DNA of 62,817 bases, the filler included, from Rhabdomonas costata (lineage: Eukaryota): the NCBI GenBank assembly GCA_019059605.1. It is 42 parts of 42 records of this genome, joined end to end, with 100 filler letters (N's around TTAATTAATTAA, not from the genome) between each part and the next. Parts side by side here need not be neighbours in the genome. Positions count along the whole stretch, not along the records: positions 52,432 to 53,829 come from JAHMHO010017111.1; 41 more parts are not named here. One strand, written 5' to 3'. The position numbers and the translations under genes are program-made. Below, one piece after another: positions 52,332-59,821 of this stretch. How positions within the stretch are numbered: position 1 is the first letter of the stretch; each line of letters begins with the position of its first letter. The notes under the pieces are model-generated. The model was not told the DNA's origin and did not search any database. It saw only the letters and a program-made list of their open reading frames with translations.

Positions 52332-52431
52332 NNNNNNNNNNNNNNNNNNNNNNNNNNNNNNNNNNNNNNNNNNNNTTAATTAATTAANNNNNNNNNNNNN
52401 NNNNNNNNNNNNNNNNNNNNNNNNNNNNNNN

Positions 52432-53829
52432 TTGTTTTGGTTGCGCAGAACCTTTTGAATCTTCAGGTCGGCTATTTTCGAAGAGCCATCCTTTCCCACG
52501 CAAATTGGATGGCTGGACTTCTCAATAATTTCCAAAAGCCAACCCGCAGTTGAGGAAGTGACGTCAACAAGATCCTCCTCCAAAGTCCAGTTTTTCGGCA
52601 CAGCAACGGAGGCTAACTCAATCCGTCGCAGGTCTAGCATTAAAGAAGCGATGGGAAGAATCTGAGCATCGTTCAGCACAAGAAAGGAACCCTCGGTAGT
52701 GCGGGCCACATTGTCATGCGAGTCTTTGATTCTGACCGTCAATGTGGAGCTTAGATGGTCTCCTGGGATAAGCTGCACCGCGTTCCCAATGACCACATCA
52801 CACAGAAGCAGACTGATCGTACCCGGGCCTTTGGGGGACAGAGCACTTTTGAACTCGATTGCACTGGCGCCTGCAAACAAGGTCCCATCTCTTTGCATCC
52901 AAAAGCCATTCATTAAGATACAGGTCAGTAGATCGTCACTGTGGTGGGTATAAACTAGTTTGTATTTCCGATCTGGGCGCTGCAACGTTCGGACAGTCTT
53001 CCAAAAGCTTTGCTCCACCCGAGGATGGTACGCAGTCCGAGCCTTGCGCAAACTTACGTCCCAACCCGCTGGCAGGAACGACTTGACATCTCGAAAAAGA
53101 CCTTCAAACTCGCCATCACCCTCTTTGATGTCAAGCAACTTGGGAAGCCCACCATCACGCAAAAGACCCGTAGCTCTCTTTTCGCATTCCAAAGCAACCT
53201 GCTTTTGTTTTTCAGCGAATTCCCGATCACAATCAGGGCACGAGTACTCTGCAACGTGGCGATTGCCGCACTGAACAGAAACCCGGTGACGACACTTGGG
53301 ACGCTCGACTACTATTTTAGCAGCACAGCTTTTAGGAGGCTGCCCGCACTGCAAGCGCTGAACATGCTTGCACGGCAATGTGACATTCTCTCTGTAGGTA
53401 CATTGGCAAGGCTGGGAGCATTGTCCCTCGCAGCGGTGGGAGCACGGCAAAATCTCTTTGCAAGGATGTGTACAAATCGAATGAGATCCAGAATGACACG
53501 TCCGCTCGCAAATGTGCATCGGGCAGTTGTCAAATCGTTGCCCACATGGAAAAATGCACTTAAGTTCGTTTCGGGCTTTCAAAACGGATCTCGCAATTTC
53601 AGAGGCTGCAGGGGGCGAGGACGGGTGCCTACCCAGGAAAGCGGTTTCACCATGACGGGGACATTGCAACGGAATCTCATGTCTCACTGCCCCCTTGCGC
53701 TCCAAATGCTGAATCACTTGCTTCCAATGGATGTCAGTGTTTTGCAATAGGGCCCGGCTGCCCAGTACATACAGCGCATGCCTTGCCCTGCTGAGAGCCA
53801 CGCACATCCTGTTCTTTTTACACAAAAAC
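52432..53829 (-). CDS. ZNFX1-like protein fragment: SF1 helicase motif VI, NF-X1 zinc fingers, degenerate PARP-like domain, start of a second PARP-like domain
   Basis: The whole contig is one open frame. NRMCVALSRARHALYVLG...W..VI..L...IPLQCPRH is the Upf1/ZNFX1 helicase end; Cys/His repeats span 53558-53229; the PARP-fold pattern spans 53138-52635; VPKNWT...LVDV...LKIQKVLRNQN spans 52604-52434. Confidence 0.8.
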
Positions 53830-53934
53830 NNNNNNNNNNNNNNNNNNNNNNNNNNNNNNNNNNNNNNNNNNNNTTAATTAATTAANNNNNNNNNNNNNNN
53901 NNNNNNNNNNNNNNNNNNNNNNNNNNNNNGTTGT

Positions 53935-56665: not shown

Positions 56666-59355
56666 GTTAGCCCCCTGTTTTTTGTTTGGATGTTTGAATG
56701 AATGAATTCCATCATTTGTTTTTCCTGACTTTGAACAAGTTTGAATGAATGTCGTGACATACCGTTGCCCGTCCTGGTGGTCGGGCAACGGTATGGAACA
56801 AGTCCCCCCAAACAAAACCAACAAANNNNNNNNNNNNNNNNNNNNNNNNNNNNNNNNNNNNNNNNNNNNTTAATTAATTAANNNNNNNNNNNNNNNNNNN
56901 NNNNNNNNNNNNNNNNNNNNNNNNNGGGGTTTTGGCTTTTTCGCTGCTGTGCACGCTTGGTTTGCTCTTACCGCTTCACTTGATGTCAGACATTCGCTGG
57001 TGGTTGCTGCATGTTGGAGAGCGAGGCGTCAAGGGTATTTTGCCGCATCTGAGATTGTGCCCTCCCGCCGATGCAAATCTGCACAAAAAACATATAAGAG
57101 CTGTTGACGGAAATGGGTGGTTTGGCGGGTGTGCCGTCTGATATTTTTTTTGGCAGACACCGGAGACCTAGAAAGAGCAAAACTGGCCCTTGCGAGCCTC
57201 AGGGACACCCACAAACAGAACTTTTGGAGGGCCCGTTCCGATGCCAGCATTATGCCACGCTCCCAGGGTGTCTTCACTCCGGTATTTTCAGCAGCTTCTG
57301 GCTGAAAGCTTGGTTTGTAGTCTTCGAAGGTCGAACGGGTAGATGATGAATAAAAAAATTAAGAAAGTGGGAAAGAAAATTAATCAAAGTGGGCACTTCA
57401 AGAAACCGTACTTTTGCGTGGAGATGCAGGAAGAGGCTAGAGAGCTGCCATTAAGCACATCTCAGGCGAATATTTCATATGAGAATCAGCCAGATGAGCT
57501 CAAGTTATGTTCCCCACCTCAGCGTGACGTTTGGACAGAAGGACAGGGGGCTGGACGGTCCTGCTGGATAATCGTAACGCAGACATGGATGTTCTCCCCT
57601 TCAGTCCGCTTCCTGTCAGCTCTCGGTTGCCTGGCTTTGATCGGCCCCGCGCAACACAAATTTCAGCTGTCACTAACGGAGTATGGTGTCCTTTTTGTTC
57701 AAGTTGTGCCATATCATCCACCCATTCTTTTCTGCAGCAGCTGGGGACTCTCGTCCTGCACGGTTCGCGATCATTTGTTCCTTTTAATTGGGGTACCCCA
57801 TCTTTCTTCCTTCTTCCCTGAACCGCAGGCAAATGCGGAGAAGAAAACACAATCACAGTCAGCGCGCTCTCCTTAGGAAGGGGTTACCATGTGGTGGAAT
57901 CAAGCATCGCTTCAGCTTCAGATGGCACCTCCAGTGTTCTGCGACGTCGCAGAATACCCACGCTTCGGGATATTTTTCAGGCCTCTTAACGGGTTGAAAG
58001 CCATTTATAATCAGACTCACCCTAAGCTCCTGACTGACGTATTAACGTACGTTAGATGCCCCCTCCCCCGTTACGTGCATCCCTGCATTGTGACCACTTC
58101 GCAAAAGTGCACAGCGATCGCTACGCACAACCAAGATACCGATTCAAAGGCCTAAAGATGAAGAAGACACAACAACACATACACCCACGACATCCTGGAA
58201 AAAAACTTTAATTGGAATCCTATGGCATCGCCCTCCAACGGCAAATCCTCCCGCGGCAAAATAGCGCAGCGATTACTACGCAAAATAAATACCGCTGCAA
58301 CGCAAAGGTAATTAACCAACCACNNNNNNNNNNNNNNNNNNNNNNNNNNNNNNNNNNNNNNNNNNNNTTAATTAATTAANNNNNNNNNNNNNNNNNNNNN
58401 NNNNNNNNNNNNNNNNNNNNNNNGTGGTGGGTGTGTTTGGGTTGGTGTGGCTGACCACTGAAAAGGACTTTCGGTCCTTGCGCCGCGACTGAAGAGCAAA
58501 GAGATAGAGACAGAAGCAAGGGTGCTGATAAAGCACTGGCACTGGGTTTCATTTCACATGGACAAGAGCAGCACCATGCTCCCGCGGTTTTCAACTCGCG
58601 GAACCGACTATGGGGAGACAGAAGAAGAAGGAAGCAAACAAGAGAGCTTATTTACATCTTTTTGATCTACTTTGGTGTACCTTAATACCTCTGGGCCTGT
58701 AATGTTCTGTAGCGAAAATCGCCAGTTTTATTTTTCGAAAATTAATCTCCCGAACGCTGTTTTCCCTGGCCCGCGCGCACCCTGGAACGCGCGATCACAT
58801 AATTGACCGGGGGGAAAGAGTTACGTTACGCGGGCATAATAGATGGAGGGCGGGAGGGAGGCGGCAAGACAAAGAATAACAAGTTGTTTCAAACGAAACC
58901 GGAAAGGACGGAAAACAGGTTTGCAGTGTTGTCTGCAGTATTTCTTCATTGACTACTTAGGGACATTTGCGTTTCAGCCGTTTCAGTCCTCTGTCCCCCA
59001 AATGCAAAATTAGGGCCAGCCCTGATTGTTTGTTCGCGCTATGCATGACTGTGATGAAAAAAACGGAAAGAAAAGTAGAACGTCACATCCGAATGAAGTT
59101 ATATAGTATATACTCCACTCTTACACACACTCCTTCCAAAACATTGTACTATATGTCTCTCCTAAGCTTGTGATCACGGGATACCCAGGGGGCAGGGATG
59201 GGGTTGGGGGGTAAGTATGCGGTACCCATGTCAAGAGTGGCAGGTTCCACTGCGGGACTCACCAACACGCGTAGATCAAAAAGTGGATGGGGTGGGATTC
59301 GAATCAAGGGAGCCACTCAGTCACAAGATTGTAATATAGAGTAGAAAACACACAC

Positions 59356-59821
59356 CCTTTTCTCATAGCTTGCACACGTCTCCGTTGGAGGGTGGGCATT
59401 GCTGTGGACGAAGCAGAACTCCTTCTTGCACCGCTGGCAGGACATCTGAGGGTCCGCGGGGTTTCCCTTCTGTGGCAGCTCGCAGAAGGGGCAGGCCCTC
59501 AGCAGGGGGTCTGCGCGCAGGTTCCGCAGCTTCACGTACCGCTGCGCAAGCCCCACGTCCAGAAAGGGCTCCACCTCGGCCTCCGCCAGCAGCCGTCCAC
59601 ACATTTGGTCCCCGGAAAACGGGCAGGTCAGCCGCGTGTTCCCCTCGGTTATGTTGGCAATGAAATACTGTGCCAGACAGTCCCGGCAGAACCGGTGGCC
59701 GCAGCCCACTAACTCCGCGCTGGCTTCCATCCTTTCGTTGGACTGGCAGATTTGGCAGTAGAAGGTCTCCACCGGTGGGGCCGGAGGAGTTATGGGCTGC
59801 ACAGCCACTCTTATTGCCTCC
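59356..59821 (-). CDS. RBR (RING1-IBR) E3 ubiquitin ligase exon
   Basis: CQIC...GCGHRFCRDCLAQY...LTCP...C (RING1) then CPFC...MSCQRCKKEFCFVHSNAHPPTETC (IBR); donor GTGTGT. Confidence 0.92.

What the first reader, a model, noticed from the sequence alone, without database searches (positions are those of the whole stretch)
52432..53829. ZNFX1-type RNA helicase fused to tandem PARP-like domains, the first catalytically dead: candidate protist antiviral sensor-effector
Seen: one uninterrupted frame of about 465 codons in an otherwise short-exon genome. It has helicase motif VI and the L.C.RH linker typical of ZNFX1, then a short NF-X1 zinc-finger array. Next is a PARP-like sequence (LLDIKEGDGEF, KLVYTHHSDDLLTCILMNGF, FAGASAIEF, LLLCDVVIG, SHDNV, GSFLVLNDAQILP) where the HG(T), GIYF and catalytic-Glu positions appear substituted. 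Last is VPKNWT...LVDV...LKIQKVLRNQN, the usual entry into another PARP domain. Known: animal ZNFX1 senses dsRNA and acts in small-RNA inheritance but has no PARP domain; ZAP/PARP13 is antiviral with an inactive PARP domain. Inference: RNA sensing coupled directly to ADP-ribosylation through a pseudo-PARP/PARP pair, an architecture I do not recognise as described. Lack of introns suggests retroposition, transfer or a fast-evolving defence gene.
Basis: partly seen in the sequence, partly recalled or inferred. Interest (0 to 1): 0.75.

Follow-up and report, generated by a model that had tools for sequence, protein, structure and literature searches.

The report
ZNFX1-like helicase fragment with PARP domains
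A single 1.4-kb contig, probably from a euglenid protist, encodes the tail of a ZNFX1-type RNA helicase whose usual ubiquitin-ligase end is replaced by a degenerate PARP-like domain followed by the start of a second PARP domain; rare, but the same design already sits in public databases.

Summary
Its context is not. The window is an artificial chain of 42 unrelated pieces of about 1.4 kb, joined by N44-TTAATTAATTAA-N44 linkers. The finding is exactly one piece, open in one frame from end to end (465 codons).

- **Residues 1-205:** the end of an SF1 helicase plus a Cys/His-rich region. It is homologous to human ZNFX1 (PDB 9q9z, E 8e-7) and to 17 ZNFX1-like proteins.
- **Residues about 231-398:** a very diverged PARP-fold domain. 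Pfam and PDB sequence searches miss it. A profile-profile comparison with 13 true PARP domains gives 96.8% probability. A low-confidence model matches only PARP folds. The catalytic Tyr and Glu are gone; whether the His is kept depends on the alignment.
- **Residues 405-465:** these match the lead-in to an intact H-Y-E, tankyrase-like PARP domain in the only close relative, a Rhabdomonas costata protein. The window stops before that domain.

Helicase-zinc finger-PARP proteins already exist in Limulus and in an unnamed assembly. I found no paper describing them. The function is inferred. Verdict: a new variant of known kinds, of moderate interest.

The parts
52432..53829 (.). One complete assembly piece (1398 nt), bounded on both sides by artificial N44-TTAATTAATTAA-N44 linkers
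   Evidence: Gap map and sequence read. It is one of 42 such pieces.
52434..53828 (-). Open reading frame of 465 codons (P0001), open at both ends: an internal fragment of a larger gene
   Evidence: Translation. Chance of staying open about 2.4e-10. Homologues.
53754..53828 (-). Residues 1-25: last helicase motif (NRMCVALSRARHALYVLG), the end of an Upf1-like SF1 helicase core
   Evidence: Pfam AAA_12 positions 170-194 of 195, E 0.0048, below cut-off. Aligned to ZNFX1 from residue 1297 and to the AAA_12 ends of P0002, P0014 and P0022.
53574..53753 (-). Residues 26-85: linker with the conserved W..(I/V)..L and L.C..H motifs seen in ZNFX1
   Evidence: phmmer alignment to 9q9z_A. BLASTP to P0002 and P0014.
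53214..53573 (-). Residues 86-205: Cys/His-rich NFX1-like zinc-finger region (19 Cys, 8 His in 120 residues)
   Evidence: Aligned to the ZNFX1 Cys-rich region up to residue 1450 and to repeated Cys-rich units of P0002. Counts. Pfam zf-NF-X1 itself does not match.
52635..53138 (-). Residues 231-398: domain 1, a highly diverged PARP-fold domain (pseudo-PARP). Catalytic Tyr and Glu are replaced; the His is ambiguous.
   Evidence: hhalign against 13 PARP domains: 96.8%, E 2.6e-10. An HMM of PARP domains scores it 10.2 bits, reached by 0 of 2000 shuffles. BLASTP to Limulus PARP domain 1. MAFFT register. Model pLDDT 52 matches PARP folds only. No match in Pfam or in PDB sequence searches.
52434..52616 (-). 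Residues 405-465: N-terminal lead-in (VPKNWT ... LKIQKVLRNQN) of a second PARP domain that is cut off by the contig end
   Evidence: Aligned to P0019 residues 240-297, which run on into PF00644 at residues 322-470. The local PARP HMM matches residues 420-465 weakly (5.7 bits).

Best explanation
**Anatomy.** The piece is an intron-free internal fragment of a large protist gene, most likely euglenid. The gene belongs to the ZNFX1 branch of Upf1-like SF1 helicases. In order, the fragment holds the last helicase motif, the ZNFX1-type linker, a Cys/His-rich NFX1-like zinc-finger region, a degenerate PARP-fold domain (d1), and the first 60 or so residues of a second PARP domain (d2).

In the one close relative, Rhabdomonas costata RCo017192, d2 is a tankyrase-like domain with H, Y and E in place, and the protein as predicted ends there. 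In human ZNFX1 the matching C-terminal region holds the Z-RING and RZ ubiquitin-ligase modules. So this lineage has a PARP pair where animals have an E3 ligase.

**Proposed mechanism (inferred, not shown).**
- The helicase core, which lies outside the contig, binds RNA in a nucleotide-dependent way.
- This activates d2 to ADP-ribosylate the protein itself, bound partners or the nucleic acid.
- d1 has lost the Tyr and Glu needed to hold and activate NAD+. It would act as a structural or regulatory partner of d2, or as a binding module, like the inactive PARP domains of PARP13/ZAP and TASOR.
- The resulting ADP-ribose mark or chain would play the part that ubiquitin chains play for human ZNFX1, namely trapping or marking foreign RNA.
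For: **Shown by calls**
- The frame is open for 465 codons.
- ZNFX1 homology: 9q9z_A at E 8e-7. 17 of 17 hits among longer proteins carry AAA_11 and AAA_12, and 13 of 17 carry the ZNFX1 domain PF25396.
- An exhaustive phmmer search of the C-terminal 251 residues against 1.84 billion representatives gave one true relative, P0019 (E 4e-35, 35% identity). It is a Rhabdomonas costata protein.
- P0019 d2 matches PF00644 at E 3.4e-23 and tankyrase at E 3e-15, with HG, GIYFA and E aligned.
- d1 is PARP-derived:
  - BLASTP is colinear with Limulus P0014 over residues 1-391 (E 2e-19).
  - d1 alone against the Limulus PARP domains scores 35 and 23 bits.
  - hhalign gives 96.8%, and 0 of 2000 shuffles reach the real HMM score.
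  - MAFFT independently placed d1 on the PARP domains of 12 of 12 proteins, with P, W, H, F, G, F, A, V, G, Q and P invariant.
  - The Foldseek matches listed are all PARP catalytic domains (best E 1.2e-5, TM 0.55-0.57).
  - In the Foldseek-independent search, 18 of the top 19 chains are PARP or pseudo-PARP domains (Z 9.4-5.9), and rank 20 drops to Z 3.0.
- Triad: 12 of 13 reference PARP domains have H-Y-E. d1 has none of Y or E in any register.
- The same design occurs elsewhere: Limulus P0014 and unnamed P0022.
- The piece is not a compositional outlier among the 42 pieces: rank 26, 15 and 16 of 42 for 2-, 3- and 4-mers.

**From a paper**
- Human ZNFX1's RNA-stimulated Z-RING/RZ E3 activity (bioRxiv 10.1101/2025.09.05.674436; abstract and section 8 read).

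**Circumstantial**
- The closest PARP domains to P0019 d2 sit in proteins with LRR and TIR domains (P0023) or with kinase domains (P0026-P0029).
Against: - The helicase core, any N-terminal ZNFX1 domain, and the catalytic part of d2 are not in the window, so the full architecture is extrapolated from relatives.
- Pfam PARP does not match d1. Neither do phmmer nor a 2-sequence profile against PDB sequences.
- The first structure model failed (pLDDT 33.9).
- The second model has only pLDDT 52.4 and pTM 0.48. It was built from an alignment in which 12 of 13 rows are PARP proteins, which pushes it toward that fold.
- The reference PARP set for hhalign was chosen by me from hits to P0019 d2. It is small, and the E-value is for a single comparison.
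- No expression data could be obtained.
- There is no evidence at all on RNA binding, NAD+ use or defence.
- The relative P0019 shares only 35% identity, so this gene's d2 may differ.
Confidence: 0.7

Rival explanations
1. Domain 1 is not PARP-derived. It is a lineage-specific linker or unrelated alpha/beta domain, and the resemblance comes from weak motifs such as LLLC.V..G and Q.LP.
For: - No PARP match in Pfam at E 10 or below, in phmmer against PDB, or with a 2-sequence profile against PDB.
- The Atlas feature search gave no PARP lead; best score 0.84 to unnamed clusters.
- The second model is low-confidence and was built from a PARP-rich alignment.
Against: - hhalign gives 96.8% over 115 columns.
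- 0 of 2000 shuffles, and not the reversed sequence, reach the real HMM score, for both d1 copies.
- The d1 profile's best hit outside the two d1 sequences, among 31 stored proteins, is the Limulus PARP domain 1 (24.6 bits), then Limulus domain 2.
- The domain sits in the same position as in the Limulus helicase-PARP protein.
- Fold searches return only PARP folds above Z 5.9, apart from one unnamed-fold chain.
Confidence: 0.1
2. The contig is a decaying or unexpressed gene copy (a pseudogene or retrocopy fragment), or an assembly chimera, and not part of a working gene.
For: - Only 1398 nt are seen.
- No identical or near-identical protein exists in a collection of about 15 billion proteins: no hit of similar length, and the best C-terminal hit has 35% identity. 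So no transcript-derived model of it is on record there.
- Expression could not be checked.
Against: - 465 codons have no stop or frameshift (chance about 2.4e-10).
- Residues that are invariant with P0019 run along the whole C-terminal 251 residues.
- The alignment to relatives is colinear and unbroken across all domain borders, which argues against a chimera.
Confidence: 0.12
3. The contig comes from a contaminant or co-cultured organism, not from the organism that gave the other pieces.
For: - The pieces are unlinked short contigs, so nothing physically ties this one to the rest.
- The nearest full-architecture match is an animal (Limulus) protein.
Against: - Its 2-, 3- and 4-mer composition ranks 26, 15 and 16 of 42 in deviation. 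CpG observed/expected is 0.81, within the pieces' 5-95% range of 0.64-0.91.
- The closest relatives of both halves are euglenid proteins: Euglena gracilis for the helicase and zinc-finger part (36% identity, 102 bits, highest of the 8 relatives run by tblastn) and Rhabdomonas costata for the C-terminal part (34%, 174 bits).
- Identity to Limulus is only 25%.
Confidence: 0.08

Closest known systems
Human ZNFX1 (PDB 9q9z; NFX1-type zinc finger-containing protein 1)
   Same: The helicase end, the linker with the L.C..H motif and the Cys/His-rich region align to residues 1297-1450 (E 8e-7). Animal ZNFX1 proteins are among the 17 hits.
   Different: After the Cys-rich region, human ZNFX1 carries a Z-RING (1533-1631) and an RZ finger with catalytic C1860, which form an RNA-stimulated E3 ligase (bioRxiv 10.1101/2025.09.05.674436, section 8). 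Here that position holds PARP-type domains. The relative P0019, as predicted, ends at its PARP domain, and Pfam found no RZ finger in it.
Limulus polyphemus LOC106460493 (P0014, 1980 aa; one source calls it Poly [ADP-ribose] polymerase)
   Same: Same order of parts: SF1 helicase, Cys-rich fingers, then two PARP domains. BLASTP is colinear with residues 1-391 (E 2e-19). Pfam finds CSD, ZNFX1, AAA_11, AAA_12 and two PARP stretches. It is the best outside hit of the d1 profile.
   Different: Only 25% identity. In Limulus the first PARP domain keeps H-Y-E and the second is H-Y-V. Here the first is the degenerate one, and in the euglenid relative the second is H-Y-E.
Rhabdomonas costata RCo017192 (P0019, 472 aa)
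   Same: The only close relative of the C-terminal 251 residues (E 4e-35, 35% identity). It starts inside the last zinc finger, has the same degenerate d1 (no Y or E), and has the same ...VLRNQN lead-in.
   Different: It shows what the window lacks: a complete d2 with H, Y and E. Its N-terminus looks truncated, so its helicase is not seen either.
Inactive PARP domains: PARP13/ZAP C-terminal domain and the TASOR pseudo-PARP
   Same: A PARP fold with the catalytic triad lost. In the Foldseek-independent search they are among the three top-scoring chains: TASOR 6tl1_B at Z 9.4 and PARP13 4x52_A at Z 9.1, tied with PARP10 at 9.4.
   Different: No specific sequence kinship was shown; the Z differences are under 1 and the model is low-confidence. 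ZAP binds RNA through CCCH fingers, not through a helicase, and neither protein has a second, active PARP domain in the same chain.
Tankyrase, PARP10, PARP14 and PARP15 catalytic domains
   Same: The relative's d2 is closest to tankyrase in PDB (E 3e-15) and then PARP15, PARP14 and PARP12. The d1 model matches PARP10, PARP14, PARP15 and tankyrase.
   Different: Different partner domains: ankyrin/SAM or macro/WWE there, an SF1 helicase and NFX1-like fingers here.

Membership tests
ZNFX1 family (Upf1-like SF1 helicase with NFX1-type fingers) | SF1 helicase core (Pfam AAA_11 plus AAA_12) | tested here: inconclusive
   Only the last 25 residues of AAA_12 are on the contig (E 0.0048, 16.9 bits against a cut-off of 27). 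The rest lies beyond the contig end. All 17 homologues have both domains.
ZNFX1 family (Upf1-like SF1 helicase with NFX1-type fingers) | Cys/His-rich NFX1-type zinc-finger region directly after the helicase | tested here: met
   Aligned to ZNFX1 residues 1297-1450 (E 8e-7) and to the Cys-rich repeats of P0002. 19 Cys and 8 His in 120 residues. Caveat: Pfam zf-NF-X1 does not match.
ZNFX1 family (Upf1-like SF1 helicase with NFX1-type fingers) | N-terminal ZNFX1 domain (PF25396) | not testable with these tools
   It would lie upstream of the contig. No genome is held, and no other piece of the window matches.
ZNFX1 family (Upf1-like SF1 helicase with NFX1-type fingers) | C-terminal RZ finger (PF20173) and Z-RING E3 module | tested here: not met
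   Within the fragment, the zinc fingers are followed by PARP-like domains, not by a Z-RING. The relative P0019, as predicted, ends at its PARP domain and has no RZ match. The gene's true C-terminus is not on the contig, so an RZ finger after d2 cannot be fully excluded.
PARP / ARTD catalytic domain (PF00644), domain 1 | PARP fold | tested here: met
   hhalign 96.8%. All Foldseek matches listed are PARP domains. 18 of the top 19 chains are PARP folds, Z 9.4-5.9. Caveats: model pLDDT is 52 and the alignment was PARP-rich.
PARP / ARTD catalytic domain (PF00644), domain 1 | Score above Pfam's gathering threshold for PF00644 | tested here: not met
   No PF00644 match at E 10 or below. The equivalent domain of P0019 is not matched either.
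PARP / ARTD catalytic domain (PF00644), domain 1 | H-Y-E (or H-Y-x) NAD+-binding and catalytic triad | tested here: not met
   Tyr is replaced by L or E, and Glu by S or A, in every register. His is kept in 2 of 4 registers, but then without the following Gly. 12 of 13 reference domains have H-Y-E.
PARP / ARTD catalytic domain (PF00644), domain 2 | Catalytic core with H-Y-E | not testable with these tools
   Only the roughly 60-residue lead-in is on the contig. The relative P0019 has the full domain with H, Y and E.

The most novel reading that the evidence does not exclude
ZNFX1-type helicases may be a modular RNA-sensor frame on which evolution has swapped the covalent-modifier end. Animals carry a Z-RING/RZ ubiquitin ligase. 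Euglenids, and independently or anciently a chelicerate, carry a pseudo-PARP/PARP pair. In the PARP version, RNA binding would switch on ADP-ribosylation, with the dead domain acting as the allosteric partner of the live one. The ADP-ribose chains would take the RNA-trapping role that ubiquitin chains have in human ZNFX1.
Probability: 0.25. Interest if true: 0.7.

Novelty: new variant of a known kind. Interest (0 to 1): 0.45.

Why it matters
A 2025 preprint reports that human ZNFX1 is an RNA-activated ubiquitin ligase that restricts RNA viruses. A protist relative with a PARP pair in place of the ligase would mean the helicase and zinc-finger frame can drive different protein- or nucleic-acid-modifying enzymes. 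It would also give a natural case for asking how an inactive PARP domain works next to an active one in a single chain.

The case is limited. Only a fragment is seen, the design already exists unremarked in public protein sets, and nothing is known about its activity.

Tried and rejected
- **Pfam on the whole fragment:** only the AAA_12 tail matched; no zf-NF-X1 and no PARP.
- **phmmer of the fragment against PDB sequences:** ZNFX1 only, no PARP.
- **2-sequence d1 profile against PDB sequences:** two chance-level hits, PglZ and bL9m, and no PARP.
- **Homologue search among proteins of similar length:** none.
- **Exhaustive search of the C-terminal 251 residues:** the second hit, P0020, is a bacterial DUF11 repeat protein matched on a 35-residue stretch. 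I set it aside as spurious.
- **Atlas feature search of d1:** best score 0.84 to unnamed viral and bacterial clusters, below the level the tool calls a lead.
- **Atlas search with the Limulus helicase-PARP part:** only AAA_12 clusters; no large cluster combines AAA_12 and PARP.
- **First structure model (3-row alignment):** pLDDT 33.9, unusable and not searched.
- **Metagenome scan with the C-terminal alignment:** 593 pattern matches, none confirmed.
- **Rfam on the window:** no match.
- **Earlier notes of this scan:** nothing by place or by sequence.
- **Whole genome:** not held.
- **Sequencing-run look-up:** Coverage, expression and spliced-leader reads therefore could not be checked.
- **tblastn of 8 relatives against the window:** all 11 matches fall inside this piece, so no other piece carries the missing helicase or PARP parts.
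- **Literature:** four full-text searches found no paper that describes a ZNFX1-PARP or helicase-PARP fusion. In the fungal PARP preprint that surfaced, a passage search found no mention of a helicase. Blasi et al. 2022 on metazoan ZNFX1 helicases was seen only as a citation, and supplements were not seen. The fusion may therefore be mentioned somewhere I could not read.
- **P0022:** I looked for a d1-like domain between its zinc fingers and its PARP domain. None was found with either HMM.
Full report
**1. What the window is**

The 62,817-base window is not continuous genome. It holds 82 runs of exactly 44 N, arranged in pairs around the 12-mer TTAATTAATTAA. These spacers split it into 42 pieces of 1392-1399 nt. 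In other words, short contigs of nearly equal length were strung together with a spacer that has stops in all six frames.

The finding's coordinates, 52432-53829, are exactly one piece. 'One uninterrupted frame in an otherwise short-exon genome' compares this contig with 41 unrelated contigs, whose longest open frames are 94-325 codons. 'Lack of introns' can be stated only for 1398 nt. No whole genome is held.

**2. The observation**

On the minus strand, 52434..53828 translates to 465 residues without a stop, and the frame runs off both contig ends. From the piece's base composition, the chance of that is about 2.4e-10. A 263-codon antisense frame on the plus strand has no support. I take it as a by-product of the coding strand.

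**3. Residues 1-205: the ZNFX1-type end**

- Pfam finds only the last 25 positions of AAA_12, below its cut-off (E 0.0048).
- phmmer against PDB sequences finds one significant chain, human ZNFX1 (9q9z_A, E 8e-7). Residues 1-161 align to ZNFX1 1297-1450. That covers the last helicase motif, the linker with its L.C..H motif, and the Cys-rich region.
- Among longer proteins, 17 score E 0.001 or better. All 17 carry AAA_11 and AAA_12, 13 carry the ZNFX1 domain PF25396, and several are named ZNFX1 in animals.
- Residues 86-205 hold 19 Cys and 8 His.
- Pfam zf-NF-X1 does not match. So 'NFX1-type' rests on homology to the ZNFX1 region, not on that model.

**4. Residues 215-465: relatives**

An exhaustive phmmer search of these 251 residues against 1.84 billion representative proteins gave two hits at E 0.001 or better. 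One, P0020, is a bacterial DUF11 repeat protein matched over 35 residues, and I set it aside.

The other, P0019, scores E 4e-35 at 35% identity and covers the whole query. It is the Rhabdomonas costata protein RCo017192 from EukProt. P0019 starts inside the last zinc finger and aligns without large gaps to the window's end at '...VLRNQN'. It then continues into a PARP domain that Pfam scores at E 3.4e-23, residues 322-470. That domain is closest to tankyrase in PDB (E 3e-15), with HG, GIYFA and the catalytic Glu aligned.

The window itself stops before the catalytic core.

**5. Is domain 1 (residues about 231-398) a PARP domain?**

*Against:*
- No PARP match in Pfam.
- None by phmmer or by a 2-sequence profile against PDB sequences.
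- No lead from the Atlas.
- A first model from a 3-row alignment failed, with pLDDT 33.9.

*For:*
- (a) BLASTP against the Limulus protein P0014 is colinear from the helicase end through the fingers into its first PARP domain. Query residues 1-391 align to 1355-1755 at E 2e-19. Domain 1 alone scores 35.0 bits on Limulus PARP domain 1 and 23.1 bits on domain 2, in a 3-sequence database.
- (b) I built an HMM from 13 true PARP domains taken from stored proteins. It scores the two d1 copies at 10.2 bits (window) and 19.0 bits (P0019). None of 2000 shuffles of either reaches its real score; the shuffle maxima are 4.3 and 7.7. The reversed sequences score -2.5 and -1.8.
- (c) hhalign of the d1 pair against the 13-domain alignment gives probability 96.8% and E 2.6e-10 over 115 columns.
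- (d) MAFFT, given d1 and 12 whole proteins, placed d1 on the PARP domain of all 12. Eleven columns are invariant, including the P..W of the lead-in, F, G, FA, V..G and Q..P.
- (e) A second model from that alignment reached pLDDT 52.4 and pTM 0.48. Foldseek found 73 matches at E 0.001 or better, and those listed are all PARP catalytic domains (best PARP10, E 1.2e-5, TM 0.55-0.57).
- (f) The search that does not rely on Foldseek put PARP or pseudo-PARP domains in 18 of the top 19 places. TASOR pseudo-PARP scores Z 9.4, PARP10 9.4 and PARP13 9.1, running down to PARP16 at 5.9. Rank 13 is a Toxoplasma conoid chain of unnamed fold, and rank 20 falls to Z 3.0.

*Caveats.* The model is low-confidence, and 12 of the 13 rows in its alignment are PARP proteins, so the fold result is not independent of (a)-(d). 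The reference set was picked by me. Taken together, I judge the PARP origin of d1 to be about 90% likely.

**6. The catalytic residues of d1**

Of the 13 reference domains, 12 have H-Y-E. Limulus domain 2 has H-Y-V. The table gives what stands at each position of the window's d1.

| Position | BLASTP | hhalign | hmmalign | MAFFT | Calls |
|---|---|---|---|---|---|
| His | T | T | the second H of 'THHS', with the following Gly-Ser/Thr deleted | same as hmmalign | 13, 46, 56, 58 |
| Tyr | L | E | L | L | same |
| Glu | A | S | region not aligned | S | 13, 46, 58 |

The Rhabdomonas d1 has V or H, then V or L, then R at these positions. So the Tyr and the Glu are lost in both species, and the His-Gly pair is at best disrupted. 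'Catalytically dead' is a sound inference from what the triad does in PARPs. That role is general knowledge of the family; no call here tested it.

**7. The same design elsewhere**

- Limulus P0014 (1980 aa) has CSD, ZNFX1, AAA_11, AAA_12 and two PARP stretches by Pfam. One source names it 'Poly [ADP-ribose] polymerase'.
- P0022, an unnamed 1720-aa protein, has AAA_11, AAA_12, a Cys-rich stretch that aligns to this fragment, and a C-terminal PARP domain with 39% identity to P0019. I found no d1-like domain in it.
- Of the 17 ZNFX1-like hits, 1 has PARP. Of the 11 PARP hits to P0019, 1 has the helicase.
- No large Atlas cluster combines the two domains (a lead only).

So the fusion is real and recurrent but rare in what I could see. 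The d1 profile's best outside hit is Limulus domain 1 rather than any protist PARP domain. This hints that the tandem may share an origin. I did not test that with a tree.

**8. Whose gene is it?**

Of 8 chosen relatives run by tblastn against the window, the best match to the helicase and finger part is Euglena gracilis EG_transcript_332 (36% identity, 102 bits). The only close match to the C-terminal part is from Rhabdomonas costata. The piece is not a compositional outlier among the 42 pieces. A euglenid origin is therefore the best guess. It is not proven, because the pieces are unlinked.

For context, the genes examined in a euglenid draft genome paper are intron-rich: 2 to at least 10 introns in open reading frames of 0.9-2.1 kb (PMC8219788, passages read). 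A 1.4-kb exon is thus on the long side. That is not evidence of retroposition or transfer.

**9. How it may work**

A 2025 preprint reports that human ZNFX1 is an RNA-stimulated E3 ligase. Its activity comes from a Z-RING (residues 1533-1631) and an RZ finger (C1860), both located after the Cys-rich region. Its ubiquitin chains drive aggregation and RNA entrapment (bioRxiv 10.1101/2025.09.05.674436, abstract and section 8).

In the window's protein, the region after the fingers is a PARP pair instead. My reading is an effector swap on the same sensor frame. RNA-bound helicase would switch on d2 to ADP-ribosylate itself, its partners or nucleic acid. d1 would serve as a non-catalytic partner, as the dead PARP domains of ZAP and TASOR serve non-catalytic roles (recalled; not tested here).

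There is circumstantial support for a conflict-related role. The PARP domains closest to the relative's d2 sit in LRR-TIR-PARP and kinase-PARP proteins. Every step of this mechanism is inference.

**10. Verdict**

- The sequence observation is right, and most of the domain reading stands.
- The context claims come from a concatenated window.
- The claim of an unknown architecture is weakened by database examples.
- I found no paper that describes the fusion. Blasi et al. 2022 and all supplements were not readable here.
- It is a new variant built from known kinds, seen only as a fragment, with moderate interest.

Noticed in passing
window 1-62817 (e.g. 1400-1499, 52332-52431, 53830-53929): The whole window is 42 contigs of 1392-1399 nt joined by N44-TTAATTAATTAA-N44 spacers. 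Neighbouring pieces are therefore not neighbours in any genome, and any reading across pieces is unsafe.
   Followed up: yes
window 59320-59820 (-): A 167-codon open frame in another piece matches RING (zf-C3HC4, E 3e-6) followed by IBR (E 1.7e-6). It is a fragment of an RBR-type ubiquitin ligase. Seven other long open frames from other pieces had no Pfam match.
   Followed up: partly
window 52959-53747 (+): A 263-codon open frame lies antisense to the coding frame of the same contig. It has no homology support and is probably a by-product of the sense strand's codon use.
   Followed up: no
P0014 (Limulus), residues 1566-1771 and 1782-1979: The Limulus helicase-PARP protein also has two PARP domains, but in the opposite order of integrity: the first is H-Y-E and the second H-Y-V. 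It is also the best outside hit of the euglenid d1 profile (24.6 bits), which raises the question of a shared origin for the tandem.
   Followed up: partly
P0023, P0026-P0029 (unnamed and EukProt proteins): The PARP domains closest to the Rhabdomonas d2 occur in an LRR-TIR-PARP protein and in several protein kinase-PARP proteins. These architectures look like immune or signalling proteins.
   Followed up: no
P0009 (EukProt transcript, 2052 aa): By its precomputed Pfam list, this ZNFX1-like protein carries CCCH zinc fingers (PF00642, PF18345, PF18044) as well as the helicase, the ZNFX1 domain and an RZ finger. That is a ZAP-like RNA-binding module on a ZNFX1 frame.
   Followed up: no
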